NCBI GenBank assembly: GCA_963921275.4
Contig: OZ001293.3
Location: forward strand, 4,160,001 to 4,224,000
DNA: 64,000 nt
Reading direction: 5' to 3'
DNA from: an uncultured Hormoscilla sp.
GTDB lineage: Bacteria; Cyanobacteriota; Cyanobacteriia; Cyanobacteriales; Desertifilaceae
The translations under genes and the position numbers were made by a program. Below are positions 23,739 through 63,000 of this stretch, piece after piece. Within the stretch, counting starts at the first letter, position 1, and each line of letters begins with the position of its first letter. The notes below the pieces were generated by a model. The model had not been told where the DNA came from, ran no database searches, and was given only the letters and a program-made list of their open reading frames with translations.

Positions 23739-25849
23739 ATGAGAAACTCAAATCAAGGACATCTGGGCGAACTGGCAAAATTATTTCTTAAACTAGGGGC
23801 GATCGGCTTCGGTGGCCCCGCCGCCCACATCGCCATGATGGAGGATGAGGTTGTCGAAAAACGCCAGTGGTTAACCAGGGAACATTTCCTGGATTTAATT
23901 GGTGCCACCAACCTCATTCCTGGTCCCAATTCAACTGAAATGGCAATTCATGTAGGCTATCTCTACTCCGGTTTGCCCGGTTTGGTGGTGTCAGGGGTCT
24001 GTTTTATTCTCCCAGCAGTTGCCATCACGGCTATACTGGCCTGGGTTTATGTCTCTTTTGGCAGTCTGCCCCAAGTTGCCCCTTTACTTTACGGCATTAA
24101 ACCTGCTGTACTAGCAATTATCTTGGGTGCTTTGTGGCGTCTGGGGAAAAAAGCAGTTAAAAACTGGAAATTGCTCTCGATCGCCTTGGGGGTAGCTACT
24201 TCCCTATTCTTAGGGTTGAACCAGGTGGTAGCCTTATTATTAGGCGGAGTTTTGGGTACGATCGGGCTGCGACTGGCGGCGGGAGACAATCATCAGAATA
24301 CAGCAATGGTAGCCGCTGGGTTAACTAGCAGTGTGGCCCTGCCAGATATTACTGCTATATCAGTTGCTGCTAGGACTACAACTCACGTGCCCTTGTGGCA
24401 GTTGGGGTTATTTTTTCTGAAGGTGGGAAGCGTTCTATTTGGTAGTGGCTATGTCCTGGTGGCCTTTTTGGAAAATGGATTGGTTAGAGACTATGGTTGG
24501 TTGGTGCGATTCGTTCAGGCGTAAACTGGCGACGGTGAAGTCTGGTCTGGTTTCATTTGCCGGATAACTCTGGTTATCATGGGGGTTAAATTCCCTCTCC
24601 CCAGGTGTGGGGGGTCGAGGGTACTACCGGTCCTTAGTGCTGCGGGGTCACATCGCCGTGGTGCTCCGCTAGGACTTAAATGTAGGATAGCTGGCAGCCT
24701 AACCCAGTGACGCCGCTAGGAAAGATGCTCATGGTTAGAACAAGCGAACCTGTTAAAGCCTCGTTACATAGAACCAGCGGAATAAGGCTTATACGCTGGC
24801 CCAAAAGGGAAAATGGTAGTTAGTGTTGGTAGTCATCTATTGCCAGCATCGCACCCAAAGAACTCCCGGGGTATAGCAGGGGCCTACAAGCATCGAGAAA
24901 TGATACCAGGGAACGAAGTAACCTCACGTGAGCTGTCCTCATTTGGACCAGTTAGATGTAAAGCGCAAGCCGCGAAGAGGAAGGATGTTCTAAGAAGCCA
25001 ACGCCTGGGGTAATGCCTGGGATATGCAGACGTAGGACGGATATGGTAAGAAGCCTTTGGTGAAAGTAGCCCTAACACGTCGCAAAACTTAGGAGAAATC
25101 CAAAAGTATGAATATGGACTAGAGTCTCAGCCGGGTAAAGTTCAGAGCCCCGATAAATTGCCAGAATGGGGAAATGTTAGAGAAGAGCGGCTAGAATGGT
25201 TTGCTGAACTACCCTCCGCGATCGCGCAGCGTGCGCGCAGCGCATACCTTCCGGAGCTGAAATCATTAACGGTCCAATAGGATTGACCATAAGGGGTAAA
25301 ATTACAGAGGGTAAGGGGAATACGGGGTAACCTAATTATTGATGATGATATGCCTAAGGACAAGCCCCAGCGGTGAAAGTCGCAAGTCCGGTTCCGCTCT
25401 TGGAGGGTTGGGGAGTGATTCCCAGCTCGACCCCGACCACTCAGCAGCTGCTGCTGGATGCGATCGCGATCGGTCAATTCACTCCTGGACCTGTACTTTC
25501 CACATCTACATTTATCGGTTACCTAATTGCTGATTTACCTGGTGCCGCAGTTGCGACAATGGGAATATTCCTGCCCTCATTTTTCTTCGTTGCTGCCTTA
25601 AATCCCCTGATTCCACGCTTGCGGGCATCCAAGTGGACATCAGCATTTTTAGATGCGGTCAATGCTGGGGCGGTAGCGTTAATGGCAGTGGTAACAATTC
25701 AGTTGGCACGCGGGACTCTGATTGATATAGCAACTATCCTGATTGCTATTGCCGCAGCTATTGGGGCCATTCGCTTTCAAGTTAACGCTGCATGGCTGGT
25801 TTTGAGTGGTGCTGTGCTGGGGTTTTTAGTTTCAATCAGTAATTTGTGA
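23739..25849 (+). CDS. chrA: Chromate transporter ChrA (long-chain CHR), interrupted by a group II intron; exons 23739-24503 and 25439-25849
   Basis: GFGGP, PGPNSTE, FGSGYVL. Splicing joins DYGWL|TQQLLLDAIAIGQFTPGP in frame, giving 391 aa. Confidence 0.9.
24504..25438 (+). mobile_element. ORF-less group II intron (935 nt), sense orientation in chrA
   Basis: Begins GTGCGATTCG and ends with DV/DVI ...TTCCCAGCTCGACCCCGACC. EBS1 CATCTA versus exon end TGGTTG. No RT ORF. Confidence 0.92.
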
Positions 25850-25973
25850 GAATTGAGGAGTGAGAATTGAGAATGGTAGATTTATTTATTCACGTTCATT
25901 AGCAATTTTTAGTTATTCTTGACATTGTTATACAGAGAGTATAGGATATTTAATCATTAGCTAGATAGACAAA

Positions 25974-28130
25974 ATGAAACAGGAAGTCAAAAAGAAAAAG
26001 AAACAGAAGAAGTGGCAAAAACTGACATTTTACACATCATTGCTCCTCTGCGCCACTACTTTCCTGTTGGCGACAGGCGGGCTGTTCTTGTACTCGCGAG
26101 AAAAACAGCAAATACTTACAGAGGCGAGAACATCAGCCAAGCGACAAACAATCCGGGCGGCTTTGGAAATTGACCGAGAAGTGCGTTTGGCTAAAGACAC
26201 AGCCCTGGCGATCGCCAACGATCTGACTGCGGGCAGATTAAATGACACCGAGGTATTAAACCGACTCAAAGCCGAACTGGAGAAAAAGCCTCAGCTTTTA
26301 GATGTGGGCGTTGCCTATGAACCTTTCGCCTACGATCCGAATGTGAGGCTGTATGCGCCCTATTATGCCAGATTAAAAAATGAACTGCAATCCCTGGAAG
26401 TTACCTACAACTACACTCGTCCTAAGTATGCTTGGTATCGGAACACTCTCACCAAGGGGGCTCATTGGGCAGAACCAGACTTTTGGCAGGACAGCACTTT
26501 ATTCAGTCAGCCAGCAGTAGGATTTTACACGCCTTTTTATAGTCGAGGATCTCAAAACCAGCGTCCGCGAGGAATAGTCTACGCCGAATATTCTATGGAG
26601 ACGATCGCAGATATAGTCAAGTCACTCAATCTCGGTAGAACTGGCTACGGCTTTCTAGTTTCCCGGACTGGGAATTTTCTCTATCATCCCAATGAAGGGT
26701 ATGTCAAAAGTCAGGCAAACATCTTTGACCTCGTATACGATCGCAACGGATCACAAGTTCGTCCTTTAGTAGATTTAGTAGCTAGAGCCTTGCGTGGCGA
26801 ACCCGTAGAAGCAGATTTGAGCGATGACATCACAGGTCAAAATTCCTGGGTATTTCTGCGACAAGTAAATCAGAATGGATGGGTGGTGGGAGTAGTCTTT
26901 ATTCAGGACGAAGTTTTGCCAGACAACCAAACCACGCGACGCCAACTTATCTTTCTCAGTCTCGCATTTATGTGGTTTTTCGTGTTTTTGTTTTTCCTCC
27001 TTTTCCGGGCTGACAAGGGTACTGTCAAGCGTCTTGGGGCACTGTCGTCTACTGTCAGCCTGTTGTTTCTAGCAGAAATCGGGTTTATCTGGAGTTTGGC
27101 GCTAAAAACACGTACCTATACCTCTACCCGGAATCTGCTGCTGAATGAAACTGCTGTAGATCAGTTATTGGTTCCCCAAGTTGAGTTAAGTGCAAAATTA
27201 AACCAAAAACCACCGCTGTTGGTACCTACGGGGGTTTATATTCACTCCCTATATTTTACCAGTTCTAACGATGTGTTTGTGACTGGCTATATCTGGCAGG
27301 AATACCACGAAGGAATCCATGATGAGTTGGAGCGTGGTTTTATCCTACCCGATGCTATTGATGCCAATGATTTGGAAGTGAAGGAGGCTTATCGCCACAA
27401 GGAAGACGAGATCGAGGTCATCGGTTAGTATGTTGAAGCTACTCTGCGTCAGGATTTCGATTTTTCCAATTATCCTTTTGACTATAAAGATGTCAAAATC
27501 AGGTTGTTACACCTGGACTTCAATCGTCGGGAATTAAACCGTCAGGTAATTCTGGTTCCCGATCTAGGGGGCTACGAAGTGATCGATCCCAGAACTAAAC
27601 CTGGTGTAGATAAAGATATTGTCTTGGGCAACTGGAATCTGAGTGATATTTTTTTTGAGTACAAGTTCAAAACTTATGATACAAATTTGGGGATCAAAAG
27701 TAATCTGTTCAAAACTAACTTTCCCGAACTTCATTTCACAATCGTGCTGCAAAGAGATTTCATCGGTCCGTTGATTTCTAGAGTCGGACCACTCTTAGTT
27801 GTCGTCACTCTGCTCTTTGCGATGCTGCTGATCTCCGATGAGGAGAAGGCATTAGAGGTTTTGGCAGCTTGTATTGGTTTTGTCTTTATTGTCATCCTCG
27901 ACCAGATCGCTTTGAGAGAACAGATTGTCACGAAAGGAATTCTTTACTTCGAGTATTTTTACTTCGCGATCTATTTTTACATTTTCCTGGTGACCGTTAA
28001 TGCTATCCTGTTTATCTCTCAGCCTAACACTCCTTTCATCCAGTATAAAGATAACTTGATATCCAAGTTGCTTTACTGGCCCACACTTCTGAAGATATTG
28101 CTAGTAATCACGATTTTAGTATTTGCTTGA
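25974..28130 (+). pseudogene. Cache-domain + pentameric ligand-gated ion channel-like fusion, split by TAG at 27426-27428
   Basis: TM-dCache (YAPYY, WY, WAEP, GYGFLVS..G.FLYHP)-TM. Then VPTGVYIHSL...G*YVEATLRQDFDFSNYPFD (Pro-loop) and four TM helices, all in one frame. Confidence 0.8.
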
Positions 28131-32194: not shown

Positions 32195-34090
32195 TTATGA
32201 CAGGCGATCGCGAAAATCATCTATTGTCCGTTTCAACCCTTCTGCCAGGGGAATAGTGGGTTCCCATCCCAGCCAGGTTTTCGCACGAGTAATATCCGGT
32301 TGTCGCTGTCGGGGGTCATCCTGTGGCAGGGGTTTAAAGATTATCTCCGCCTCTGGGTTAATCATTTCCTGGATTTTGCGAGCCAGTTCTAAGATAGTAT
32401 ATTCATCAGGATTCCCGATATTAACTGGTCCTACATATTCCCCATTCATCAACCGAATTATTCCTTCTACCAGGTCCGATACATAGCAAAAACTCCTTGT
32501 TTGGGAACCATCTCCATACACCGTCAGGGGGATGCCTTTTAAGGCCTGGACGATAAAATTGCTCACCACTCGTTCATCATTTGCCAACATCCGGGGTCCA
32601 TAGGTGTTGAAGATGCGTACCACCCGAATGTCTACATTATTTTGCCGGTGATAGTCAAATGACAGAGTTTCCGCAATCCGTTTCCCTTCATCATAACAAT
32701 TTCCACAAAACAGGGCTTTCCCGTTTCTTCTGACAAATATGACGTGGTTGGGTACGTTTACGCAGTAGACAAATCCATCGTACTCGGAAACTGCTTGCTT
32801 TCCATACCTGAGATTTTCACTCCCCTCTTGCACCTGGATCTGATATACTTTTTCTTGCGACTGGGTCTCCTGCACTTCTATATTCCCTGCATACCCCAAT
32901 TTTAATAGCAGTTCTTGCACATCACTTATCAGTCTCCCTGACTTGCACTCATAGCGATCGCCCGTTCCCTCTCCCTGCCTCACCGATGTCCAGAATATGT
33001 TTAGCTGCCTGCTAGACAAGCACATCACATCTCTGGGAATATACCGAGTCTCTGATGGACCCAATTTCTCCAGATACGAGTATAGCTGCTGAGAATAGAT
33101 GCTGATTTCCTGCTTGCCAAGCTTTACATTCGGGAACAGCAACCTGGCCACACATGCTTTCATCTGCTCATATTTTTCTCCTACCTCTGCCAAGATCACT
33201 TGATATTTTCCATCTTGGATCCCAATCGTTCCTGATGTGATATAATATCCCAAGAACTCCACCCAATCATCCATTTTTATCCTGTTTAAGGGATGAACTG
33301 ATAAATCAAACCAGTCTCGTTCTTCTCCTTGATAATGGGCCACCTTCAGCATTTGCGCTGCTTCCCACTGCAACGGGGCATCTGCCCGGATCAGCGACCA
33401 ACCCGACCCTAAGAACGACCAATCCCTCCTGCTTTTGGCATACATTTTGTGATTGGGCGTCACCAGCAGGTCGCAGTCCTGATTTTGAAAGTGAATGACT
33501 TTGCCTCTGTACCTTTCTGCAATTATTTCTACTGGTTGATGATACTCGATTTTTCGCGCAGCGTTCGCCCGTTCTCCATTCAGCGTCGCTATTCTATCTT
33601 CCCTGGATAGGGCGTGAAAATATTTCCAACCTTCGCTGGTGAGAACTTCTGTATCAGCAGAAAAGCAACTTCTAATCCCGATCGGATTAACATTGCCGCG
33701 ATAATCTTCTGTTTGGGGATGGACATCTGGGTCTCCATACACTTCCGAAGTTGAAGCTAGGAGGAATCTGGCCTTTACTCGTTTTGCCAGTCCTAGCATA
33801 TTCATCGTCCCCATCACATTAGTTTTCACCGTTTTTACGGGATTCGACTGATACTGGACTGGTGACGCCGGACAAGCCAGATGATATATCCGATCTACTT
33901 CCAACCGGATCGGTTCGGTGATATCATGGCGGATCAGTTCAAAATAGGGATTATCCAGCCATTTGAGGATATTACGCTTATTTCCCGTGTAGAAATTATC
34001 CAAGCAAAGCAATTCATGTCCTGCCTCCATCAAGCGATCGACGAGATGGGAACCTAAAAAACCTGCTCCACCTGTGACTAAAATTCGCAT
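32195..34090 (-). CDS. UDP-glucuronate decarboxylase (UXS-like SDR) precursor containing an intein; extein 308 aa
   Basis: MRILVTGGAGFLG, HLACPASP, STSEVYGDP, PIGIRS|intein|CYDEGKR, RIFNTYGP. Confidence 0.92.
   Translation of the reverse strand: MRILVTGGAGFLGSHLVDRLMEAGHELLCLDNFYTGNKRNILKWLDNPYFELIRHDITEPIRLEVDRIYHLACPASPVQYQSNPVKTVKTNVMGTMNMLGLAKRVKARFLLASTSEVYGDPDVHPQTEDYRGNVNPIGIRSCFSADTEVLTSEGWKYFHALSREDRIATLNGERANAARKIEYHQPVEIIAERYRGKVIHFQNQDCDLLVTPNHKMYAKSRRDWSFLGSGWSLIRADAPLQWEAAQMLKVAHYQGEERDWFDLSVHPLNRIKMDDWVEFLGYYITSGTIGIQDGKYQVILAEVGEKYEQMKACVARLLFPNVKLGKQEISIYSQQLYSYLEKLGPSETRYIPRDVMCLSSRQLNIFWTSVRQGEGTGDRYECKSGRLISDVQELLLKLGYAGNIEVQETQSQEKVYQIQVQEGSENLRYGKQAVSEYDGFVYCVNVPNHVIFVRRNGKALFCGNCYDEGKRIAETLSFDYHRQNNVDIRVVRIFNTYGPRMLANDERVVSNFIVQALKGIPLTVYGDGSQTRSFCYVSDLVEGIIRLMNGEYVGPVNIGNPDEYTILELARKIQEMINPEAEIIFKPLPQDDPRQRQPDITRAKTWLGWEPTIPLAEGLKRTIDDFRDRLS
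32699..33667 (-). mobile_element. Intein (323 aa) with a degenerate LAGLIDADG-like region
   Basis: Block A CFSADTEVLT, block B VTPNHKM, block F VYCVNV, C-terminus LFCGN followed by +1 Cys. Confidence 0.92.
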
Positions 34091-34118
34091 GACTGACTCC
34101 CTTGACTGCCATCTTTGA

Positions 34119-35933
34119 TTATTGTCCTTGTTCCAGGCGCAGCACCGCCATAAAAGCTGATTGGGGCACATCTACAGTCCCGATGGATTTCATCCGCTTT
34201 TTCCCTTTCGCCTGTTTAGCCAGCAACTTTTTCTTTCTGGAGATGTCTCCACCATAGCATTTTGCCAGGACATCCTTGCGCAAGGCCGGGATATGTTCGC
34301 TAGCAATTACCCTCGACCCGATCGCTGCTTGGATGGGCACCTTAAACTGATGGCGGGGAATCAGTTCCTTCAGCTTTTCAGTCAAGCTGCGACCGACATG
34401 ATAGGCTTTGTCTCGATGCACGATCATCACCAAAGCATCTACCGAGTCATTATTAATCAAAATATCCAACTTGACCAAAGGGTTTTCTCGGTAACCCAGC
34501 ATCTGATATTCCATGCTGGCGTAACCGCGCGATCGGGACTTCAGCTGGTCAAAAAAGTCCGTCACCACCTCTGCCAAAGGCAACTCGTAGATCAGAGTAG
34601 TGCGCCCCTGAGTCAGATACTTCATGTCTTGGAATACCCCCCGACGGCCTTGACAGAGTTCCATCAAGGCACCCACATAGGTTTCTGGGGTAATCATGTC
34701 CACCTGCACGTAAGGTTCTTCAATCTTTTGGCGATCGTTTGGTGCTGGCAGAGTGCTGGGGTTATCTATGTTGATGACCTCAGCATTGTTAAGTGTCACC
34801 CGATACACCACTGACGGCGCGGTGATAATCAAGTCCAGATCGTATTCTCGTTCTAGGCGTTCCTGGACAATTTCCATATGCAGCAGTCCCAGAAAGCCGC
34901 AGCGGAAGCCAAACCCCATGGCGCTGGAGGTTTCCGGTTCATAGGACAGGGCCGCATCATTTAGCTTCAGCTTTTCCAATGCTTCCCGCAACTCCGGAAA
35001 TTGGTCCGCATCTGTAGGGAACATACCGCAAAACACCATGGGCTTGGCTTCTGTGTAGCCTGGCAGAGGACTTGCCGCCGGTTGAGCTTTGAGAGTAATG
35101 GTATCTCCCACCCGGGCATCTTCTACTGCTTTGATCGATGCTGCTAGATAGCCCACTTCTCCCCCATGGAGTTCCTCTACTTGCACTTGCGTCGGCGCTA
35201 ACACCCCCAGTTCGTCGATTTCATATTCCTTGCCCGTGGCCATCAGACGGATGCGATCCCCCTTTTTCACTCTGCCATCCATCACTCGAAAATAGACTAT
35301 CACTCCCCGATAACTGTCATAATAGCTGTCGAAAATCAAAACCCGCAGGGGTGCAGACAGTCTGTCTGCCGGTGCTGGCACCAGATGGACGATGGACTCG
35401 AGGATCTCATCTATGCCGATCCCCTCCTTTGCGGAAGCCTCGATCGCCCCACTACAATCTAGGCCAATTATTTCTTCGATTTCGGCCTTGACCCGTTCTG
35501 GGTTAGCCCCTGGCAGGTCAATTTTATTCAATACGGGGATAATTTCCAGGTCGTGTTCCAGGGCCAAATAGACATTAGCTAGGGTCTGGGCCTCCACTCC
35601 TTGGGAAGCATCTACCACCAGCAGTGCCCCTTCGCAGGCTGCCAGAGAACGGGACACCTCGTAGGAAAAATCCACATGACCGGGGGTGTCAATCAAATTC
35701 AGCACGTACTGCTGACCGTCAGAGGCCGCATAGTTCATCCGAACCGCTTGCAGCTTAATGGTAATCCCCCGTTCCCGTTCCAAGTCCATATTGTCGAGGA
35801 ACTGTTCCTTCATCTGGCGGGCCGCCACTGTGCCCGTGGCTTGCAGCAGCCGGTCTGCCAGAGTCGATTTGCCGTGGTCTATATGAGCGATAATGGAAAA
35901 ATTACGAATTTGAGCGACAGTAGCGTCAGTCAT
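34119..35933 (-). CDS. lepA: Elongation factor 4 (LepA)
   Basis: [50 protein letters not shown]. Confidence 0.98.
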
Positions 35934-36359: not shown

Positions 36360-36837
36360 TTCTACTCACTGCGTTGACTGCCCCAAGCCTGCCCCCTCGT
36401 CAAGTCCAGACCTGTATATTCAACGCATGTTGATTACCTGGGGGGCTTCGCCCTCCAATTACTCCTAACAACCGCCCGACAAGGTTTTGGCGATCGCCAA
36501 TCTCTTTTCTGCCATCACCAAAAAGCGAGTAGGGCGCTCAATTAGCCAACTCACAAATCAACTCGCCCATTCGATGTCTCCCGGACGCACGGCGAAAACC
36601 CGGGAGACATCGCAAGTTGGTACCTAAGATTGACAAATATATTTAAGGTGCTATAATAAAAATGATATCATCCCGCTTTGATCGATAAAGCGAGTAGGGC
36701 GCTCAATTAGCCCAGCAAGTTGGTACTTATTTGTTAATGTGAGTTATGGAGTGAGGTGGCAAAGAGTGAGGCTGACAAGACCCTAACGTTCCCGTTCTCC
36801 CATTATTCACATAAATGATGTGCTGGGTATCAGGCCC

Positions 36838-37002
36838 TTTGAGTCCTCGCTTAACACCACGGCGATGTGGCTCCGCCGCATTGAGGACCGGTGTCACCCC
36901 CGCACTTGAGGGAGGGGAATTTAACAATAATGAGTACCAGAGTTTCTAGTTTCCTAGACTAGCGTTCCGTGTTTGACTATGTTAGGCTAAAACGAATCGC
37001 AC
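36838..37002 (-). mobile_element. 5' fragment of the ORF-less group II intron family
   Basis: Minus strand begins GTGCGATTCGTTTTAGCC; colinear with 61007-61176. Confidence 0.85.
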
Positions 37003-37875: not shown

Positions 37876-38375
37876 ATGTCAGAACAAGTTCGTTATATCA
37901 CCAACGAAGGATGTGTATTGTTGGATAACAGTCGTGTCAATTGGAGGACCGCAATTATATCTAACTCAGATATAGAAGCTATAGAAATTGTCGAACAGGA
38001 GATCGATGACCCGAGTATCCAAGTGGGAAGTGGTTGTCAATGGAATGGTTGTGGCGTAGAACCCCAATGGAACAATCCTAAATGTAGCAAGGTCTACGAT
38101 CATATTTTGCGTCATCATGGTCCTCAACTACAACCCCGTCATTTTCAGGGTAGAATAGCAAGTACCAACACCGATCAAGGACAGTGGCTAAACTTGCGGG
38201 ATTTAGTCAAGGCCGAACAAGTGACTCTTAAACATCCAGGCAGATATATCATCGATTTTTAGCGTCCTCTAGGGCGAGTTTATCATGCCGATGGTAGCAT
38301 AACTGAAAATGTTACCCGTGTTAATATTAACAGAAAGCTGGATGGCACTCTGAAATATGCTTATCCTGTAGTATA
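37876..38375 (+). pseudogene. Putative polymorphic-toxin nuclease domain; internal TAG, C-terminus displaced by IS982
   Basis: YDHILRHHGP...*RPLGRVY...DGTLKYAYPVV; the frame resumes after the IS (39395-39428). Confidence 0.55.
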
Positions 38376-39387
38376 ACTCAAGTTGCGACCTATAAAAATT
38401 GGATACAAAAAGCTATGATAAAGAGAATTATTTTCAACTCTAATCCCTTAGATGTAACAGCATGAATTGACTTGGGAAACAAATTGGTGATTCGACTAAA
38501 ACAGGTTTCAACTTGTTTTCTTGTTACTTTTTGTATATATTCAAAACAAGAATATTCTTTTCTTTTTGAGTTCTTTTTTCGCAAAGGTTTTAACATTATA
38601 CTTGACGACTCTTTTAGTAAATCCTCTAATTGATAATCATTATAAGCTTTATCTCCATAAACTATTGAATTTGATGGTAAGTCAAAGCCAAAAGATTGCA
38701 AAACTTTAACATCATTATAACTACCAGGATCTAGATAAAATTCTATTGGCTTTCCATTTTTGTTTACCAACATATGAACTCTTAATCCATAAAAATAACG
38801 TTTTTTACTGGCAATATACCCTCGATATTCTTCCTTGTTATAAATTTGGCATCTATCAATCCTAATATTATCACATACTGGCACCGGAAAACTATCAAGA
38901 ATATATTCTTGACCCGGATTGAGCTCTTTAAATGTTTGAGCTATAACTTGGAAGAAAAACATCCAAATTGGTTCCTCAATATTGTGTAATCGACGATTGA
39001 ACCTACTTTTACTTAACAGATTTTTTATATACTTGTGTTGGACCATAAATTGACAAGAGCGATCGTGGTGTCCTCCGAAAAAATATGCAGCAACTAATCC
39101 GACTGTCATCACTTCGGCATTGTTCATTTTTACTTGTGGATCTTCTTTTATATTTAACGCTTTTAGTAGCTCGTCACAAAGAACAAAAATTGTTGTAATC
39201 ATATCTTCCATCATCTACATCCCCCAGCAATTAACTATTATTTTAGTACATTATAACCTATAAACAGCCAACCCGCCGTCTAGCACAAAAAAAATATAAT
39301 TTTGTATCAAAAGCTACGAAATATCCCAAATATCTGTAAAGTCTAAGTGGGTAATTCATATTTTTTTTAATAGGTCGCAACTTAGGT
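38376..39387 (-). mobile_element. IS982-family insertion sequence (intact), 7-bp TSD TAGTATA
   Basis: IRs ACTCAAGTTGCGACCTAT / ATAGGTCGCAACTTAGGT; TSD at 38369-38375 and 39388-39394. Confidence 0.92.
38390..39214 (-). CDS. IS982-family transposase
   Basis: SRFNRRL, DSFPVPVC, YFYGLRVH, GDKAY, RKQVETCFS. Confidence 0.92.
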   Translation of the reverse strand: MMEDMITTIFVLCDELLKALNIKEDPQVKMNNAEVMTVGLVAAYFFGGHHDRSCQFMVQHKYIKNLLSKSRFNRRLHNIEEPIWMFFFQVIAQTFKELNPGQEYILDSFPVPVCDNIRIDRCQIYNKEEYRGYIASKKRYFYGLRVHMLVNKNGKPIEFYLDPGSYNDVKVLQSFGFDLPSNSIVYGDKAYNDYQLEDLLKESSSIMLKPLRKKNSKRKEYSCFEYIQKVTRKQVETCFSRITNLFPKSIHAVTSKGLELKIILFIIAFCIQFL

Positions 39388-39420
39388 TAGTATACCATTA
39401 CACCTTCAAGAAGAGAGAAA

Positions 39421-44923: not shown

Positions 44924-45856
44924 CTAGCAACCGAAAATACCGCAAACGTTGCGAATAGTGTTGGTTACATTATTAATTGTACTCAAGGTTTTGTTCAGGT
45001 CGTCAATCCGATCGCGCGGATCTGGTTCGGTACTCGCCACATAAGCTTGTCCCAACTCCGGTGCTGCTGAATTCTCCACTTGCAAGCTCAAAAAAATCCC
45101 GGCCTGGGGTGCTTGCTGCAAAAAGGTATTAATCGGAATCGCATAATTAAATCCCGGCTTGATTTGAGAAGCAATGCTGACCGCTACCTCCTCACTAAAC
45201 CTTCTGCTATCAATTTACTGTGATCTTCCTTATCTCCCAACCCGTGAATGCCAATCACGCGACCTCCCGCATCAAATACCGGTCCCCCACTCATCCCCGC
45301 GCGAGTTACATTGGTATAAATCATCTTGTAACCCAAATAAGGCTTCTCCAAAAAAGCCGATATCGCACCCCCCGTAAACTGACGAATCAGTGGACCGCCA
45401 GCTTGTTGCCCTACTGTGCCTAAAGCCAGCCATCCAGACACAAAAACATTCTGTCCCTCATTCGCCAGTTCAGAATTCGCCAGTTTCGCAATTTGATATT
45501 CTTCTTTATTGCTGGTAAATTCCACCAATGCTAAATCAACATCAGGCAGCGGTTTTACCTTCTTCAGATCCACTTCGTAAGCTTGCTTGTTCGGGGCAAC
45601 CAGAATGCATTTTTCCAAACCGCCAACCACGTGCATATTTGTCGTAGTAATTATTGCCATATTTAGCAATAATTACTCCCGAACCATGTCCTTTTCCCGT
45701 CTCTGTTTCCCCTACAATTAACACCGTCACCTCGCGGGCGATATAATTTACCTGCGTGCCAGTCAACGCCACGGTCTTTCCCGCCAAGGTTACTACTAGC
45801 GCACTGGCGATCGCCACCCCGCCGACAAAGGCAGGAATACTATTGTCAAACCTCAT
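44924..45856 (-). pseudogene. Trypsin-like serine protease, frameshifted
   Basis: HGSGVII, HVV, DLALVEF and GMSGGPVFDAGGRVIGIHG spread across frames. Confidence 0.8.
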
Positions 45857-45938
45857 AATTTTACCTCCAAACAATCAAATCTCACTTGACAAGGGACAAA
45901 AACTGCAAATAGGTACTCTAATGGGAATTCTCCAACTA

Positions 45939-46679
45939 GGGCGTGTCATCAATTAAGCCATATTACAGCTGCCGCGAGGTAGATGGCACCCAAGAAATTG
46001 CGAGCCGTTTTATCGTAGCGTGTCGCCAGAGCCCTGTATTGCTTGAGTTTTTGGAATAGATTTTCAATTAGATGCCGCCACTTGTACATTTCTTCATCGT
46101 ATTCTCTGTGTTCTGTGCGGTTACTTTTTGGAGGAATGACAGCCATCCAATCCGCCTCTTTCAGGCGCTCGAGCACACGTTGTTCCGCATCATAGGCTTT
46201 ATCTGCAAGCAGCGCGCCAATCTCACCGATTTTATCCAATAGCACGTCAGCGCCTTTCCCGTCGTGGGCTTGGCCAGGGGTAAGATGAAATCCTGTGGGA
46301 TTGCCTTGGGCAATCGCAAGTGGCATGAATCTTTGTCGATAGTCCCCCTTTACTACGGCCTATGGCTTGGGTTTCGCACGTATCTGAGGGTGTTTTTTTT
46401 TGCACCCGCACGCTCGTTGATGGGCACGCAGGATGGTGGCATCAATCGCGGCGTATTCGTTATCGGCGTCTGAGGCCAAGACATCGAATACCTGCTTCCA
46501 AACTCCCTTTTCAGACCAACGGGTATGGCGGGTATGAACAACCCGAAAATCCCCGTTCCCACTGGTCGTCTCGCAAGCCATAGCGTCTCATATCATGCCC
46601 TCTTGATTGTTATTGCTGGATAAGGACTCCATACCGTATCCATCTATTTCTGTCAAGCAATTTGATTGATGACACACCC
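45939..46679 (-). mobile_element. IS5-family element (transposase in several frames), TA duplication
   Basis: TIRs GGGCGTGTCATCAAT / ATTGATGACACACCC; IDATILRAHQ, ADKAYD, YKWRHLIENLFQKLKQYRALATRYDK. Confidence 0.88.
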
Positions 46680-47415
46680 TAGAATCGATCATTTTTTCTA
46701 AGATAGCGGGTTCCAGTTCAGTACCATCAGCAAAGGCATAGACTCCAAAAGCCGGATCTCGGTGTTTCACCCGACCGTTAATGCCAATCAGCAAACCCCT
46801 AGCATTCAATATCGGACCGCCACTCATTCCCACCACAATATCATTTGTATAGCCCAAACGATAGCCCCGATCGAGAGATTTAGACAGTAACAGGGACACC
46901 TCCCCTTTCGTAAACTGAAACGCCTCAATTCCCAACTCAAAGGTAGTTCTCACAGTGCCGGGATGATACATGGGAAAACCGGCAGCATATACCCGTTCTC
47001 CCACGATCGCGGCTTCCGTACTAACTTCCGCTATCGGATAGTCCGCCCCACTGCTAAACTGAGCGATCGCCATATCAGTATTTCCCAGTCGTATAGGCGA
47101 TCGGGCCAATTCTTACCGTTGACCATCATGGGCGATCAGCGTATACTCCTCGCTAAAAGCAACCACGTGCCAACTGGTCACTACCGTATAAACTTGCCCC
47201 GATCTCCCGATGATCGCCCCCGAACCAGAAGCCCTCGGCGTCAGAATGCGAACCGTCACCCCTTGGCTTAAACGTTTTATCTGAGCAGATGTCATATCCC
47301 CAGCCTGGGAAACTAGAAGCACGGGTTGAGCGATCGTCTCCTCGAAGAAGTATAATTGGGTAAAGGCGATCGCCACTAAGACAGCATAGCGGAAGTAACT
47401 CCTGCTTGGCTCCAT
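46680..47415 (-). pseudogene. Trypsin-like serine protease with in-frame TAA (47113-47115); C-terminus cut by IS5
   Basis: SGSGAII, TSWHVV, DMAIAQF, GMSGGPILNARGLLIGING; the frame resumes SWRIPI beyond the IS. Confidence 0.8.
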
Positions 47416-56335: not shown

Positions 56336-56537
56336 AACAGGTATTGGAGTTGTAATCAGCAAAACCTGGGAAATTGGTCAGAACAGCAGGCAAAAAGTTA
56401 GTTTTGGTTTGAGGATCCCGATCCTGAGGGAAAGGTGATACGGAGAAACTATAAGAACCTAAGTTGCGACCTATTAAAAAAAATATGAATTACCCACTTA
56501 GATTTTACAGATATTTGGGATATTTCGTAGCTTTTGA

Positions 56538-57534
56538 ATTAGGGGTCGAGCTGGGAATCGCTTCCCAACCCTCCCTTTCGAACCGTGCATGCGGTTTTCA
56601 TCGCACACGGCTACTGGTTAGTTGGACCTTGTCATTGGCAGGATTACTGGGGATTGCTCCCTTTGTCCCTCTTCTTATGCAGTTTTTCCCCTTTATGGTA
56701 GTCGATAGGACTGTTTCGTATCTAGCTCCGGAAGGTTCGCGGGGGGTATCCAGGAAACCACTTATACCGCTCTTTGCTAACATTGCCCCTGTCTCGTCAT
56801 TAGGGGACTTTTCAAGTTTTACCCGGCTAGAGTTTTAGTCCATATTACAATCTAGGATTTCTCCTGATTTTTGGTACGTATTAGGGATACTTCCACCCAA
56901 GATTTCCAACTATATCCGACCCACGTCTGCCGGTACATTCCTGCACCACTTATACAAGGAGTTACCCCTGTCCTTTGCTTCTTGGGCCATCTCTCTCCAC
57001 ATGGCTTACGCTTATCATCTAACTGGTCCCTATCTCCTGACCACCGGTCGATAGTCGAGTAGTTATGGACAGCACACGTGGAGTTACTTCGTTCCCTGGT
57101 ATCATTTCACGATGTTTTTAGGTCCCTGCTTTACCCCGGGAGCTACTTTGAGTGTGATGTTGGCCATATGCAACAGCCAACACTAGCTACCATTTCCTTT
57201 TTAGGCCAGCGTGTAAGCCTTCTTCCGCTGGTTACACATAACGAGGCTTTCACAGATTCGTTTTCCTAACCATGAGCATCTTTCCTAGCGGAGTTGCCGA
57301 CTTTGGGCTGTCAGCTATCCTACATTTAAGTCCTTGCTCCGCACCACGGTGATGTCACTCCGCAGCACTAAGGACCGGTGTCACCCCCACACCTGGAAAG
57401 AGGGAATTTAACCCCCATGATGACCAGAGTTACCATATTGAGCCTGATTATGATTAGTTTTGGTTCTAAACATTCAGTCCAATTTTGGCTCGGCTTTTCC
57501 GTGTTTGTACAGGTTAGGCCGAAACGAGTCGCAC
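56538..57534 (-). mobile_element. ORF-less group II intron (997 nt) inside IS982
   Basis: Minus strand GTGCGACTCG...AGCCGTGTGCGATGAAAACCGCATGCACGGTTC (DV)...CTCGACCCCTAAT. Boundaries are fixed by the empty IS allele near 39307. Confidence 0.95.
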
Positions 57535-57626
57535 TACAAAATTATATTTTTTTTGTGCTAGACGGCGGGTTGGCTGTTTATAGGTTATAATGTACTAAAA
57601 TAATAGTTAATTGCTGGGGGATGTAG

Positions 57627-58451
57627 ATGATGGAAGATATGATTACAACAATTTTTGTTCTTTGTGACGAGCTACTAAAAGCGTTAAATATAAAAGAAGA
57701 TCCACAAGTAAAAATGAACAATGCCGAAGTGATGACAGTCGGATTAGTTGCTGCATATTTTTTCGGAGGACACCACGATCGCTCTTGTCAATTTATGGTC
57801 GAACACAAGTATATAAAAAATCTGTTAAGTAAAAGTAGGTTCAATCGTCGATTACACAATATTGAGGAACCAATTTGGATGTTTTTCTTCCAAGTTATAG
57901 CTCAAACATTTAAAGAGCTCAATCCGGGTCAAGAATATATTCTTGATAGTTTCCCGGTGCCAGTATGTGATAATATTAGGATTGATAGATGCCAAATTTA
58001 TAACAAGGAAGAATATCGAGGGTATATTGCCAGTAAAAAACGTTATTTTTATGGATTAAGAGTTCATATGTTGGTAAACAAAAATGGAAAGCCAATAGAA
58101 TTTTATCTAGATCCTGGTAGTTATAATGATGTTAAAGTTTTGCAATCTTTTGGCTTTGACTTACCATCAAATTCAATAGTTTATGGAGATAAAGCTTATA
58201 ATGATTATCAATTAGAGGATTTACTAAAAGAGTCGTCAAGTATAATATTAAAACCTTTGCGAAAAAAGAACTCAAAAAGAAAAGAATCTTCTTGTTTTGA
58301 ATATATACAAAAAGTAACAAGAAAACAAGTTGAAACCTGTTTTAGTCGAATCACCAATTTGTTTTCCAAGTCAATTCATGCTGTTACATCTAAGGGATTA
58401 GAGTTGAAAATAATTCTCTTTATCATAGCTTTTTGTATCCAATTTTTATAG
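57627..58451 (+). CDS. IS982-family transposase (second copy)
   Basis: Four amino-acid differences from 38390-39214. Confidence 0.92.
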   Translation: MMEDMITTIFVLCDELLKALNIKEDPQVKMNNAEVMTVGLVAAYFFGGHHDRSCQFMVEHKYIKNLLSKSRFNRRLHNIEEPIWMFFFQVIAQTFKELNPGQEYILDSFPVPVCDNIRIDRCQIYNKEEYRGYIASKKRYFYGLRVHMLVNKNGKPIEFYLDPGSYNDVKVLQSFGFDLPSNSIVYGDKAYNDYQLEDLLKESSSIILKPLRKKNSKRKESSCFEYIQKVTRKQVETCFSRITNLFSKSIHAVTSKGLELKIILFIIAFCIQFL

Positions 58452-58472
58452 GTCGCAACTTGAGTTATAAGA

Positions 58473-59072: not shown

Positions 59073-59711
59073 ATGTCAGCATGGATGAAGTTGGAGGGAA
59101 TTAGTCGTCAGGTGGCGATCGCGGGAATGGTCAGGAATGCCCAAACTGGCCAGGGAATAGCCGGAGTCCGAGTAGAAATTACGGGAATGCCGGCAAAATT
59201 ACAAGCAAAAATTGACTTACTCGCTCAGCTATATGGGGCGGACTGGGATCGCAGAAAAGAACGACCGGACCGGACTGAAACTCGGCCTGATGGTTCCTTT
59301 TACTTCCTGGACCTGCCCGACGGAAATTATACCTTGAGGGCGTCATGGCTACAGGCAGGTACGCGCTATGGCAGTGCGAAACAAAATGTAACAGTGTCGC
59401 GGAATATCGAGGGCAAAATCAACAATCAGGAGATCCTGAAAATTGACTTGCCACCAACCTCACTTACAGGTATCATCACAGATGAAAAAGACAAAGCTGT
59501 AGTCATGGCGAAAGTGCAGCTTGAAGGGAGCAGCGAATATACTTACAGCGATCGCAAGGGGAACTATAGTATGATCGGATTAGAAGCAAGTGACAAACTG
59601 CGTCAAGTCAAGGTGAACGCCTTAGGCTACGAGTCCCAAGTGGCAGAGATAGTTTTGACTCAAGGACAGGTGAAAACTAAGAATATTGCTCTAGCTGGCG
59701 CTGCACAATGA
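59073..59711 (+). CDS. Carboxypeptidase-regulatory-like domain protein (eCIS-associated type)
   Basis: IAGMVRNAQTGQGIAG, DGSFYFLDLPDGNYTL, second beta-sandwich repeat. Confidence 0.75.
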   Translation: MSAWMKLEGISRQVAIAGMVRNAQTGQGIAGVRVEITGMPAKLQAKIDLLAQLYGADWDRRKERPDRTETRPDGSFYFLDLPDGNYTLRASWLQAGTRYGSAKQNVTVSRNIEGKINNQEILKIDLPPTSLTGIITDEKDKAVVMAKVQLEGSSEYTYSDRKGNYSMIGLEASDKLRQVKVNALGYESQVAEIVLTQGQVKTKNIALAGAAQ

Positions 59712-60069
59712 CAAAGGATAGTAGGAAAATTTGCTTAAGCAATACTCCGGACACTTTGGGGAACGACGCCGTAAGCCTTACAGCGTCAGCCTTTGGGAGA
59801 GCGAGCCATTTTTTACAAGTTAGCCCTGGGCCTGACCTTGAAAAAAATGATGCGCCTTTTGCCGTAACCCTTGCTATGTCGTGGTTCTGGGGTCTAAAAA
59901 ATGTCCGGACTATTGTAAAGCAGGAAATGTTACCAATGTCGCCGGTAACCAACACTTGAGTTATAATAAACAAACGTGCCACTCGTTCCGGCGTAAGTCA
60001 GAAATATGACGATAGTCGGGCTAGTATTACACCAGCACCTCTACAGAAAAATACAAGAGGAACCAAAAA

Positions 60070-63000
60070 ATGAAGCATAAATCCTTTACCAACACCATGG
60101 TAGTAGTGGATGCCTCCCTAGAAAACTACCAGCAGCTTATAGACGGCATCCGGCCTGGGGCCAAATCTTTCCTCTTAGACCTTCGGTCCGATGGCATCGA
60201 ACAGATCGGCGAACTTCTCCGACAGCATAAAGAAACAGAGGTTCTGCACCTACTCTCCCACGGCAGCCCTGGCTGTCTGTATCTGGGAAACTCCCAACTG
60301 AGTTTGGATGGGGTCGAGCCGGGAATCGCTTCCCGACCCTCCCTTGAGGAACCGGACTTGCGATTTTCACCGCATCCGGCTACTGGGTACTAGGCCCTTT
60401 TCATAGGTAGACTTAATAGGAATTACTTCCGTTAGCCCTTGCCGCCTGTCTTTTCTTCCCTTTCCTGGTTTAGCGAGTGGTTGTTCTGATAACCGTTAGT
60501 ATCACCATTTTCAAGTCAGTTTTACCAGTTATCCATACCTTATCCTCCACTTGCGTTTCGGATTAGTTCCGTGGCTTTTTAGGATTACTCATTCCAGCAG
60601 CTTCCTAGTATCACCGACCCACGTCAGCGCTGGCTACCCAGCATCATCTACATTACTGTAGATGTTATCCCAGGAATTACCCCGGGCATTCGCTTCTTGG
60701 GCCATCCCTCCCCCCGTGGCTTGCGCTTAACATCTAACTTGTCCTGATGGACAGCACACGAGAGGTTACTTCGTTCCCTAACAACATTTCGCGATACCTT
60801 TAGGTCCACACTATACCCCGGGAGCTATTTGAGTACTATATTAGCCAGAGTCTAAAACTAATACTAGCTACCATTTCCTTTTTAGGCCAGCGCATATAGC
60901 CTTATTTCGCTGGTTCCTTATAACGAGGCTTGCACATGTTTGCCTGCTCTAACCTTGGATATCTTTCCTAGCGGCGTCACCGGCTTAGGCTGCCAGTTAT
61001 CCTACATTTGAGTCCTCGCTTAGCACCACGATGATGTCGCTTCGTAGCACCGAGGACCGGTGTCACCCCCGTACCTGGGGGGAGGGGAATTTAACCCCCA
61101 TGCGGTCAGAGTTCCCGGCTAATGAAACCGGGCTAGCGTTCCGTGTTTGACCACGTTAGGCTAGAACGAATCGCACAGATCCTCTAGGAGATTACGCCTC
61201 TACCCTGCAGAAGTGGAAGGTAAAACAACTCCTACTCTACGGCTGTAACGTCGCCGCCGGAGATGCAGGAGAGGAGTTGATGACTAAGCTACAGGCCCTG
61301 ACCGGGGCATCCCTCGCCGCCTCTACTACCCGGACAGGGGCAGCAGCCCGGGGCGGAAATTGGAAGTTGGAGTGGCGAACTCCGGGGATGAAAACTCCCT
61401 TAGCATTGTCCGCAGAAGCTCAGATGGCCTATGGGGGCATATTGATCCCCCAGCAGGAGTATCAGGCCTTAAGGGCTCTCTATCAAAGCACCAATGGGGC
61501 TTCTTGGACGAACAATACAGGCTGGCGGGACTGGAATTTCAACAGCGCAACTCCCCCCGATGCTTCTATTGTTAACGGTTGGCATGGGGTGACGGTAACT
61601 AACAACAGGGTGACGATGCTCAACCTGGACTCCAACCAACTGACTGGCAGCATCCCGACGGAGTTAGGGAATCTTTCCAATTTGGAGTTTCTCTGGCTGA
61701 ACATAAATCAACTGACTGGCAGCATCCCGACGGAGTTAGGGAATCTTTCCAATTTGGAGTCTCTCTGGCTGTACTCCAACCAACTGACTGGCAGCATCCC
61801 GACGGAGTTAGGGAATCTTTCCAATTTGGTATCTCTCAGGCTGGACTCCAACCGACTGACTGGCAGCATCCCGACGGAGTTAGGGAATCTTTTCAATTTG
61901 AGATCTATCTGGCTGTACTCCAACCAACTGACTGGCAGCATCCCGACGGAGTTAGGGAATCTTTCCAATTTGATATCTCTCAGGCTGGACTCCAACCGAC
62001 TGACTGGCAGCATCCCCCAAGAGGTCTTAGATTTGCGGGCCTCAAAGCGATTGGAAAACCCCCCTTATGTAAAAACCGAGATTACCGACGTCGAGTTCTT
62101 GCTAGGTAATAACCTCAACATAGACATTAGCGCAAATTTCGGCGACATCAATAACAACATCAACAACTACACAGCTACCGGTTTACCAGGGGGCGTAACG
62201 ATCAACAGTCGGAGAGTTATCAGCGGTACTCCTACTACCGCAGACACCTTTACCGTGACAGTAACAGCAACGGATAGGGCGGGAGGCCGGGGAGAAGATG
62301 AATTTAATATTACGGTATCGATTCCTCCTCTAAATGCAAGTGATTACGCCGCCCTTCAGGCTCTCTATAACAGTACTTCTGGGGATAATTGGACGAACAC
62401 GACAGGCTGGGATGTCAGCAGCCCAACTCCTCCCTCTGCTAGTGTTGTTAATAGCTGGCATGGGGTGACGGTAGTGGGAAATCGGGTGACGGAACTCAAC
62501 CTGTACAACAACTCCCTGAGCGGTACGCTCCCCTCGGAGTTAGGCTCCCTCAGCAATTTGCAACGCCTCATCCTGGAGTCAAACTCCCTGAGCGGTACGC
62601 TCCCCTCGGAGTTAGGCTCCCTCAGCAATTTGCAACGCCTCAACCTGTACAACAACTCCCTGAGCGGTACGCTCCCCTCGGAGTTAGGCTCCCTTAGCAA
62701 TTTGCAATACCTCTGGCTCTATTCCAACTCCCTGAGCGGTACGATCCCCGACAGTATCAACGCTTTGTCAGCAGACAAACGATTGGAAAACCCTCCCTAT
62801 GTGGAAATTCAAATTCCCGACGTCAATGCCTTCAGTAGTGAGAAATTCAACTTCAATGTCAGCGGGAACTTCGGCGACCTCAACAACAACATTAGTAGCT
62901 ACGGCGCTAATGGTTTGCCAAACGGTTTAACCATTAACTCCACTACTGGGGTGATCAGCGGCACTCCTACTACTGAGGGCAGTTTTACCGTGACGGTAAC

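What the first reader, a model, noticed from the sequence alone, without database searches (positions are those of the whole stretch)
24504..61176. Family of ORF-less group II introns, each with a different EBS1 matching its own target
Seen: three full-length homologous ribozymes with no RT ORF (24504-25438 +, 56538-57534 -, 60306-61176 -) and two fragments (7383-7821, 36838-37002), all within 64 kb. The equivalent stem-loop has a different loop in each copy, and each pairs at 5 of 6 positions (G-U allowed) with its own upstream exon: CATCTA/TGGTTG, TGCATA/TTTGTA, AGACTC/GGATCT. The 7383 fragment has a fourth loop, CACTCC. The stems and domain V covary between copies (CCGGATGCGG..ATCGCAAGTCCGG versus CCGTGTGCGA..ACCGCATGCACGG). 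No target duplication is present. Established: ORF-less introns mobilised in trans with EBS diversification are known from Thermosynechococcus elongatus. Inference: this is an old, diversified, non-autonomous family acting as a natural library of RNA-guided retroelements served by an RT encoded elsewhere. The density and divergence here look unusual.
Basis: partly seen in the sequence, partly recalled or inferred. Interest (0 to 1): 0.85.

Follow-up and report, generated by a model that had tools for sequence, protein, structure and literature searches.

The report
ORF-less group II intron family
Three RT-less group II introns of one old, diverged family sit in this cyanobacterial DNA, each at a site matching its own guide loops; this repeats a pattern known from Thermosynechococcus, so it is a solid but not new kind of finding.

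Summary
24504-25438(+), 56538-57534(-) and 60306-61176(-) are complete ORF-less group II introns, and 7385-7843(-) and 36837-37002(-) are fragments. An empty-site copy, a restored reading frame and a colinear uninterrupted homolog fix all six boundaries. There is no target duplication.

I fetched seven further independent copies from Hormoscilla genomes. In that register each window copy pairs 5/6 with its own exon (P about 0.015 each). Over nine copies, 50/54 positions pair, against a mean of 21 when exons are swapped. I also found EBS2, which pairs with exon -14..-9. Stems covary.

Its RT is frameshifted and truncated, and its ribozyme is only about 50-56% identical to the family.
- c2 and c3 lie antisense to the units they interrupt (an IS element, a DUF4347 gene).
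- c1 lies sense in chrA but has a non-canonical domain V.

ORF loss looks single and old. Full-length RT genes apparently lie elsewhere on the same 6.88-Mb contig. The case closely parallels the T. elongatus TeI3/TeI4 system (PMC2882425) but is more diverged. Verdict: new member of a known kind.

The parts
24504..25438 (+). Intron c1 (935 nt), ORF-less, sense inside a chromate transporter gene. IBS2 24490-24495, IBS1 24498-24503, EBS2 24767-24772, EBS1 24834-24839, DV 25363-25393 (non-canonical lower helix), DVI 25402-25433 with bulged A at 25430, 8 nt from the 3' end.
   Evidence: nhmmer. Boundaries from homolog colinearity and the open joined frame. EBS coordinates. DV 17.6 bits against a 40-bit cut-off. 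DV pair counts.
56538..57534 (-). Intron c2 (997 nt), ORF-less, inside an IS element, antisense to its transposase gene and 93 nt upstream of its ATG. IBS1 57535-57540, IBS2 57543-57548, EBS2 57233-57238, EBS1 57167-57172, DV 56581-56612, branch A 56546.
   Evidence: Rfam RF00029 42.1 bits. Empty-site alignment, 1015 bp, 99.4%, no gap. L003 carries the same uninterrupted IS. EBS.
60306..61176 (-). Intron c3 (871 nt), ORF-less, antisense inside a + strand DUF4347/LRR/He_PIG gene. IBS1 61177-61182, IBS2 61185-61190, EBS2 60915-60920, EBS1 60848-60853, DV 60350-60381, branch A 60314.
   Evidence: Rfam RF00029 44.4 bits. Frame restored on removal. DUF4347 profile 1-69 and 73-164 on the two sides. 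EBS.
5190..7383 (+). DI runs from 5190. The IEP ORF starts at ATG 5799, is frameshifted at about 5878-5891, and is cut off inside the HNH/En region at 7383. DV and DVI are absent.
   Evidence: Sequence. Pfam RVT_N, RVT_1, GIIM. TIGR04416 339.7 bits. Matches residues 25 to about 530 of 584-596-aa homologs. nhmmer 5185-5632. DI 47-56% identical to the ORF-less family.
7385..7843 (-). Internal fragment of a family member (profile positions 75-528) with its own EBS1 loop CACTCC. It is fused head-on to the truncated RT ORF.
   Evidence: nhmmer. blastn 79.5% to c3. Hairpin alignment.
36837..37002 (-). 5' fragment of a family member, about 165 nt, starting with the canonical GTGCGA at 37002.
   Evidence: nhmmer. 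blastn 78.4% to c3. 5' end.
38374..39389 (+). Second copy of the IS element that hosts c2. It is unoccupied, so it is the empty target site (junction 39306|39307). Transposase 38393-39214 (-).
56456..58467 (+). IS copy carrying c2. Transposase 57627-58448 (+).
23739..25849 (+). Chromate transporter gene split by c1. Exon 1 is 23739-24503, exon 2 is 25439-25849. Both are open and 87-92% identical to uninterrupted homologs.
   Evidence: Pfam..
60070..64000 (+). DUF4347/LRR/He_PIG gene interrupted by c3 in antisense (60070-60305, then 61177 onward). It runs off the window.

Best explanation
c1, c2 and c3 are genuine ORF-less group II introns of one diverged family that is common in Hormoscilla-lineage cyanobacteria. 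Their 5' GUGCG, DV, DVI and EBS1/EBS2 layout fit the IIB type. Each copy was put where it is by reverse splicing and reverse transcription. The guides were two intron loops: EBS1, in the terminal loop of a conserved hairpin, pairs with exon -6..-1; EBS2, about 65 nt upstream of it, pairs with exon -14..-9. That explains the exact, duplication-free junctions and why each copy carries loops that fit its own site.

The family lost its RT gene once, long ago. It then diversified while the RNA fold stayed under selection, so it must have depended on an RT/maturase supplied in trans.

In this window the copies are not gene-sparing introns. c2 and c3 are antisense to what they interrupt and so act as plain insertions. 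c1 could restore chrA by splicing, but its domain V is non-canonical. The only RT in the window is a dead gene of a different intron lineage.

Shown: anatomy, boundaries, EBS-IBS specificity, covariation, a shared DIV layout in most copies. Inferred: mobilisation in trans, which RT does it, and whether any copy is active now.
For: - **Group II hallmarks.** GTGCGA at all 5' ends. DV-DVI passes Rfam's cut-off for c2 and c3. The bulged A lies 8 nt from each verified 3' end.
- **Exact insertion.**
- **EBS1, register fixed by relatives.** 50 of 54 positions pair in the 9 independent copies of like hairpin geometry. Swapping exons gives mean 21.1, sd 3.0, maximum 34; 0 of 73,089 derangements reach 50.
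- **EBS2.** 44 of 60 pair in 10 copies, against 23.7 +/- 3.0; 0 of 73,194 reach it. A control register one base off shows nothing: 28 of 60 against 28.7.
- **Free-register test.** Same answer over 10 copies: 0 of 73,693.
- **Covariation.** 7 of 8 EBS1-hairpin pairs show changes on both sides in 11 sequences. DV-DVI has 7 such pairs against 2.9 +/- 1.1 in shuffles, and 92% of cells pair against 33-53% when partners are slid.
- **Single ORF loss.** Five of eight aligned ORF-less copies share DIV motifs despite 59-76% overall identity.
- **No RT remnant.** The only sub-E=1 tblastn hits in the ORF-less copies fall on residues 507-531 of the query frame. These are the unreal tail of the frame and its last few real codons, where it runs into antisense intron sequence.
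- **Recent insertion of c2.** It sits in one of two IS copies that differ at 6 of 1015 positions.
- **RTs available.** Among the best 120 RT homologs, 9 (one of them the window's own) come from a contig of the same length, 6,879,066 bp. P0003 (588 aa), P0013 (591 aa) and P0023 (596 aa) carry RVT_N, RVT_1, GIIM and HNH.
Against: - No ORF-containing relative close to the ORF-less family was found. The only one to hand (5190-7383) is 47-56% identical in DI, whereas T. elongatus partners are 85-100% identical (PMC2882425, section 7).
- No pair of copies at different sites exceeds 86% identity in DI, so there is no sign of a recent burst.
- The window copies match their sites less well (5/6, each with an internal mismatch) than five of the six relatives (6/6). 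With a free register the window copies alone are not distinguishable from chance.
- c2's EBS1 region fits the exon of L002_c better than its own.
- The identical IS site at 39306|39307 is unoccupied, so c2 is not homing efficiently.
- c1 and three Hormoscilla copies lack three DV base pairs.
- That the other RTs lie in the same genome rests only on an equal contig length.
Confidence: 0.72

Rival explanations
1. Fossils only. The copies were mobile once, but all copies here are now inert relics carried along in a mobile-element-rich, decaying symbiont genome. Nothing mobilises them today.
For: - c1's DV scores 17.6 bits against 42-44 for c2 and c3.
- The window's RT is frameshifted and truncated.
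- There are two truncated fragments and head-on fusions.
- Copies are only 59-80% alike.
- Each window copy has one EBS1 mismatch, while five of six relatives have none.
- c2 and c3 are antisense, so nothing selects for their splicing.
- The duplicate IS target is empty.
Against: - c2 entered an IS whose two copies differ by only 0.6%, so at least one ORF-less copy moved recently.
- DV-DVI of c2 and c3 still pass Rfam's curated cut-off.
- The divergence is largely compensatory, not random.
- The chrA exons flanking c1 are still open and 87-92% identical to intact homologs.
- Full-length RT genes appear to be present on the same contig.
Confidence: 0.3
2. Independent decay. Each copy was inserted as a full RT-encoding intron and lost its ORF separately afterwards.
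For: RT-encoding introns and RT fragments do occur alongside the ORF-less copies (window 5190-7383; L003 485-868). Three copies (c3, L002_c, L004_b) have shorter DIVs than the rest.
Against: - c1, c2, L002 inner, L002 outer and L004_c share the same DIV motifs in the same order, although they lie in two subfamilies that are 59-66% identical overall.
- The shorter DIVs look like further deletions within that layout.
- No protein-level RT remnant is found in any DIV.
Confidence: 0.05
3. Splicing-only introns kept because they sit in host genes, as in organelles, with no retroelement behaviour.
For: c1 lies in sense orientation at a codon boundary of a conserved gene, and the joined frame is open.
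Against: - Two of the three copies are antisense to the interrupted unit.
- One of those is in an IS element.
- Other copies are nested in one another in L002 and L001.
- Uninterrupted chrA exists in relatives 92% identical.
- Site-specific EBS diversification is the signature of retromobility.
Confidence: 0.03

Closest known systems
Thermosynechococcus elongatus TeI3 (ORF-less) / TeI4 (RT-encoding) group II introns, CL/IIB1 (Mohr, Ghanem & Lambowitz 2010, PMC2882425; I read passages found by term search and the whole of section 7)
   Same: - Cyanobacterial host, and ORF-less copies outnumber RT-encoding ones.
- ORF lost once by deletion in DIV.
- Families differ in EBS sequences that match their own sites.
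- Some copies sit at imperfect sites, taken there as retrotransposition.
- Insertion into IS elements and into other introns (twintrons).
- Fragments, and copies with mispaired DV or DVI.
- The best solved-structure match of the window's RT is the T.el4h maturase/RT, 6ME0 chain C, E 2e-83.
   Different: - T. elongatus introns are 85-100% identical to each other and to their RT-encoding partners. Here ORF-less copies at different sites are 55-86% identical in DI, and the nearest RT-encoding intron seen is 47-56%.
- No driver RT is identified here and mobility is untested.
- The host is a relative of the Hormoscilla MAGs, not the thermophile T. elongatus.
- Two of the three window copies are antisense inside a gene or an IS.
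Nested ORF-less and RT-encoding group II introns of Methanosarcina acetivorans (Dai & Zimmerly 2003, as cited in PMC4424553 and PMC2882425; the paper itself was not read)
   Same: ORF-less copies beside RT-encoding relatives, and introns homing into other introns. Compare the L002 twintron and an intron inserted at position 28 of another in L001/L003.
   Different: Archaeal host. The comparison rests on what the two citing papers say.
Group II intron expansions in Arthrospira platensis and Trichodesmium (Miura et al. 2022, PMC8919778, passages read; Pfreundt & Hess 2015, PMC4649490, search listing and abstract only)
   Same: Filamentous cyanobacteria with tens to about 100 group II introns per genome, mostly CL type, including ORF-less copies and twintrons.
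   Different: Those surveys count introns through DV-DVI and RT models and do not report this family. No paper in the library holds both 'Hormoscilla' and 'group II intron'.

Membership tests
Group II intron (ribozyme) | 5' end GUGYG | tested here: met
   GTGCGA at 24504, 57534(-), 61176(-), 37002(-) and 5190, and at the 9 copies located in the loci.
Group II intron (ribozyme) | Domain V hairpin (AGC triad, 2-nt bulge, GNRA loop) followed by domain VI, scored by Rfam RF00029 at its gathering score | tested here: met
   c2 42.1 bits and c3 44.4 bits against a 40-bit cut-off. NOT met for c1: 17.6 bits, with two non-standard pairs and one deleted base in the 5' strand.
Group II intron (ribozyme) | Bulged branch-point A in DVI, 7-8 nt from the 3' splice site | tested here: met
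   The unpaired A is 8 nt from each independently verified 3' end: 25430, 56546, 60314 (with boundaries).
Group II intron (ribozyme) | EBS1-IBS1 and EBS2-IBS2 pairing with the 5' exon | tested here: met
   EBS1 50/54 against 21.1 for swapped exons, 0 of 73,089. EBS2 44/60 against 23.7, 0 of 73,194, with a negative control register. Window copies: EBS1 5/6 each; EBS2 5/6, 5/6 and 4/6.
Group II intron (ribozyme) | Domains I-IV recognised by Rfam group-II-D1D4 models | tested here: not met
   No D1D4 family matched at E<=1 anywhere in the window. I recall these models as class-specific, so this bears on class, not on group II identity.
IIB1 / chloroplast-like (CL) class | EBS3-IBS3 in the coordination loop and the other IIB-specific tertiary motifs | not tested
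   First 3' exon bases are A, T, A. No EBS3 was assigned.
IIB1 / chloroplast-like (CL) class | RT of the CL lineage | tested here: inconclusive
   The window's RT (from a different, RT-encoding intron) matches TIGR04416 and is closest among solved structures to T.el4h. No class phylogeny was built. The ORF-less copies have no RT to classify.
ORF-less introns mobilised in trans (TeI3-like) | No RT ORF or remnant in DIV | tested here: met
   tblastn of the RT frame against all copies gives no hit with E<1 to the RT proper. The two antisense frames tested (25145-25438, 56539-56835) have no Pfam match.
ORF-less introns mobilised in trans (TeI3-like) | Closely related RT-encoding intron in the same genome | tested here: inconclusive
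   The one in the window is decayed and only 47-56% identical in DI.
ORF-less introns mobilised in trans (TeI3-like) | Evidence of mobility after ORF loss | tested here: met
   Five of eight aligned ORF-less copies, at different sites, share one DIV layout. One is nested in another. c2 lies in one of two 99.4%-identical IS copies.
ORF-less introns mobilised in trans (TeI3-like) | Splicing and retrohoming driven by a heterologous RT | not testable with these tools
   Needs the two-plasmid assay of PMC2882425.

The most novel reading that the evidence does not exclude
[quoted passage not shown] It has many EBS specificities, nested arrays and 55-86% divergence, and it no longer has any close RT-encoding partner. 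It is kept mobile by one or a few generalist RT/maturases acting on very dissimilar ribozymes, including a subfamily whose domain V lacks three base pairs yet still spread to new sites. That would be a bacterial case of a common trans-acting splicing and mobility apparatus serving a diverged intron population, further along that road than T. elongatus.
Probability: 0.2. Interest if true: 0.7.

Novelty: new member of a known kind. Interest (0 to 1): 0.42.

Why it matters
[quoted passage not shown] T. elongatus has been the worked example of how they spread by changing their guide loops. A second, much more diverged family in another cyanobacterial lineage shows the pattern is not peculiar to a thermophile. 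It supplies many natural EBS1/EBS2-target pairs for studying how target specificity evolves. If a generalist RT is found, it bears on how a shared splicing machinery can arise. In practical terms, annotators should expect these RT-less elements to split genes (chrA, the DUF4347 gene) and IS elements in this lineage.

Tried and rejected
- **Genome scan.** The single genome-contig scan used a 31-base pattern that matches 4 of 4 window copies holding that region. I kept this as a caveat rather than dropping it.\n- **EBS2 against exon -13..-8.** No signal. I kept it as a control.\n- **RT remnants in DIV.** None found.\n- **The window's RT intron as the cognate partner.** Rejected on 47-56% DI identity.\n- **Counting copies through spurious ORFs in the protein database.** I listed the intron ORFs and then dropped the idea as unreliable.\n- **Literature.** No paper holds 'Hormoscilla' with 'group II intron', nor 'Hormoscilla spongeliae' with 'mobile genetic elements'. 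One unrelated paper holds 'Hormoscilla', 'genome' and 'transposase'. One unrelated paper holds 'group II intron', 'sponge' and 'cyanobacterial symbiont'. Subscription journals are not covered.\n- **Not attempted.** EBS3/IBS3 assignment, a full DI-DIV secondary structure, promoter analysis, structure prediction.

Full report
**Setting.** The window is gene-dense cyanobacterial chromosome. It holds phycobilisome proteins, CCB2/CCB4, MetRS, LepA, YidC and RNase P protein, no tRNA genes, and about 48% G+C. Three results point to the Hormoscilla lineage. An IS element in the window is 97% identical to one in a Hormoscilla MAG. The nearest named RT homologs are from Hormoscilla MAGs. All five loci returned by the genome scan are Hormoscilla MAGs. 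I did not try to identify the record further.

**The observation.** A profile of the three claimed copies finds six stretches in the window:
- c1, 24504-25438 (+)
- c2, 57534-56538 (-)
- c3, 61176-60306 (-)
- fragment, 7843-7385 (-)
- fragment, 37002-36837 (-)

The three full copies are 74-76% identical by blastn and 70-73% over their full length. All begin GTGCGA. Rfam's DV-DVI model passes its curated cut-off of 40 bits for c2 (42.1) and c3 (44.4). c1 scores only 17.6 bits. No D1D4 model matched.

**Boundaries.** Each boundary is fixed by evidence independent of the intron.
- c2 lies in an IS element of which a second copy lies at 38374-39389. With 56538-57534 removed, the two copies align over 1015 bp at 99.4% without a gap. 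A Hormoscilla locus shows the same uninterrupted IS.
- c3 lies inside a + strand gene. Removing 60306-61176 restores the frame. Pfam DUF4347 covers profile positions 1-69 just before the intron and 73-164 just after it, with three residues between.
- c1 splits a chromate transporter gene. The uninterrupted homolog P0123 aligns with residues 1-254 ending at 24503 and 255-386 starting at 25439. P0121 and P0122, 92% identical to exon 1, are also uninterrupted.

There is no target-site duplication in any of the three. In each copy the unpaired A of DVI lies 8 nt from the verified 3' end.

**More copies.** Those 35.7 kb nevertheless hold 17 profile matches. After setting aside orthologous duplicates (L003_a = L001_a; L004_a and L005_a = L002_c, 99-100% identical with the same flanks), they give seven further independent copies with a 5' exon and a complete DI. 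They include a twintron in L002: the outer intron is 56-805 plus 1967-2199 and the inner is 806-1966. In L001/L003 an intron is inserted at position 28 of another.

**EBS1.** Seven of its 8 pairs show changes on both sides among 11 sequences, and its 9-nt loop is hypervariable. In the six Hormoscilla copies with the same hairpin geometry, the best match to the last six exon bases always falls at the same six loop positions. Five of these score 6/6 and one 5/6.
- With the register fixed this way, each window copy pairs at 5 of 6 positions (4 Watson-Crick plus 1 G-U). The background probability against all hexamers of the window is 0.014, 0.018 and 0.015.
- Over the nine copies, 50 of 54 positions pair. 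Exchanging exons gives a mean of 21.1 (sd 3.0, maximum 34), and 0 of 73,089 derangements reach 50.
- I left four rows out of this count. The RT-encoding intron was dropped because its loop geometry differs; its own site pairs 6/6 in the free-register tests. The three orthologous duplicates were also dropped.
In the free-register test c2's loop fits the exon of L002_c better than its own.

**EBS2.** About 65 nt upstream of the EBS1 loop is a second hypervariable hexamer between conserved flanks. With the register fixed, it pairs with exon -14..-9 at 44 of 60 positions in ten copies. Swapped exons give 23.7 +/- 3.0, and 0 of 73,194 reach 44. The neighbouring register -13..-8 gives 28 of 60 against 28.7, which is no signal. 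The window copies score 5/6, 5/6 and 4/6. It roughly doubles the evidence that each copy fits its own site.

**Fold under selection.** On a canonical DV-DVI structure, 92% of cells pair, against 33-53% when partners are slid. Seven pairs have changes on both sides, against 2.9 +/- 1.1 in shuffles. Divergence is therefore largely compensatory, as expected if copies descend from working masters.

**ORF loss.** tblastn of the RT frame finds nothing in any DIV. The only sub-E=1 hits fall on residues 507-531, the tail of the frame and its last few real codons, where it runs into antisense intron sequence. c1, c2, L002 inner, L002 outer and L004_c share the same DIV motifs in the same order, although they belong to two subfamilies 59-66% identical overall. 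c3, L002_c and L004_b have shorter DIVs that look like further deletions.

A fourth intron, on the + strand, starts with GTGCGA at 5190.
- It carries an RT/maturase ORF with RVT_N, RVT_1 and GIIM that matches TIGR04416 at 339.7 bits.
- The ORF starts at 5799, changes frame at about 5878-5891, and stops matching 584-596-aa homologs at their residue ~521-532, at 7383 inside the HNH region.
- At that point it is fused head-on to the 7843-7385 fragment. DV and DVI are absent, so this intron is dead.
- Its DI is only 47-56% identical to the ORF-less family, so it is not their partner.
- Its best solved relative is the T.el4h maturase/RT (6ME0 chain C, E 2e-83).
- Of the best 120 homologs, 9 (one the window's own) come from a contig of the same length, 6,879,066 bp. 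Three of these (588-596 aa) have all four domains. That they lie in the same genome is an inference from the contig length.

**What the copies are doing here.**
- c2 is antisense to the transposase gene of its IS, 93 nt upstream of the ATG.
- c3 is antisense inside the DUF4347 gene. Neither c2 nor c3 can be removed from the host transcript, so both are plain insertions. The DUF4347 reading frame now ends inside the intron (ORF 60070-60393).
- c1 is the only copy in sense orientation. It sits at a codon boundary, and splicing would restore a 391-aa ChrA.
- However, c1's DV lacks one base and has two mismatches next to the AGC triad, and the stretch just 5' of DV is not alignable with the other copies.
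- Two things argue against calling c1 dead. Both chrA exons are open and 87-92% identical to intact homologs. Three Hormoscilla copies at three different sites share a similar loss of the same three DV pairs, which a dead ribozyme should not have spread. I cannot explain this.

**Age.** c2 sits in one of two IS copies that differ at 6 of 1015 positions, so it probably arrived after that IS duplicated. Yet it is 20-27% different from every other intron copy to hand. A close donor copy should therefore exist, or have existed recently, elsewhere in the genome. The identical site in the other IS copy is empty and the EBS1 match is imperfect. This fits a rare ectopic event rather than efficient homing.

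**Comparison with what is known.** The T. elongatus system (PMC2882425; passages and section 7 read) has 28 introns, 17 of them ORF-less from a single DIV deletion, six EBS families, insertion into IS elements and into other introns, fragments, copies with mispaired DV or DVI, and 'driver' RTs acting in trans. Every qualitative feature here has a counterpart there.
- The differences are of degree: 55-86% identity here against 85-100% there, no close RT-encoding partner seen, and a different host.
- Reviews call ORF-less introns rare in bacteria and note that they nearly always accompany related RT-encoding introns (PMC4424553, passages).
- A survey reports up to 101 group II introns in Arthrospira, and ORF-less expansions in some genomes (PMC8919778, passages).
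- I found no paper that pairs Hormoscilla with group II introns.

**Verdict.** Copy number, the cognate RT and present activity stay open.

Noticed in passing
window 32198-34171 (-): A 658-aa NAD-dependent epimerase/dehydratase ORF is about twice the usual length. The enzyme domain is split into two stretches. Between them are sub-threshold Hint_2 (residues 169-264) and LAGLIDADG_3 (405-456) matches. This is probably an intein with a homing endonuclease.
   Followed up: partly
L002 51-2199; L001 2234-2455 / L003 4105-4326: Nested introns in the Hormoscilla loci. In L002 a twintron has its inner copy (806-1966) inserted in a conserved DIV motif of the outer copy. In L001/L003 one intron is inserted at position 28 of another. 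L001/L003 also show a head-on fusion of two copies, like the one at window 7383.
   Followed up: partly
alignment A2 columns 13-15/34-36: window 25367-25369, L002 inner and outer, L004 copy ending near 7752: Four of eight copies lack the same three base pairs in the lower helix of domain V. Three of them share the 5'-strand variant TCCT at three different insertion sites, as if a ribozyme with a broken DV had still spread.
   Followed up: partly
window 45187-47109 (-): A trypsin-like peptidase gene appears split into two ORFs (45187-45669 and 46591-47109), with a DDE transposase fragment (45952-46326) between them.
   Followed up: no
window about 25222-25245 (in DIV of c1): A 24-nt G+C-rich insert beside a GCGATCGC palindrome is absent from the other window copies. 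A similar insert sits at a different place in the L002 inner intron.
   Followed up: no
window 7844-8500 (-): Next to the intron wreckage, open frames have no Pfam match, but their wording resembles IS4-type transposase fragments. The resemblance is from recall, not from a call.
   Followed up: partly
window 16245-16268 (-): A single near-threshold Rfam match to CRISPR-DR28 (34.4 bits against a 35-bit cut-off, E 0.02) lies inside the LptC-like ORF. With no array around it, it is probably chance.
   Followed up: no
L003 485-868 (-): A fragment of another group II RT gene (up to 88% identical to residues 49-107 of P0023) abuts the IS copy at L003 878-1901.
   Followed up: no
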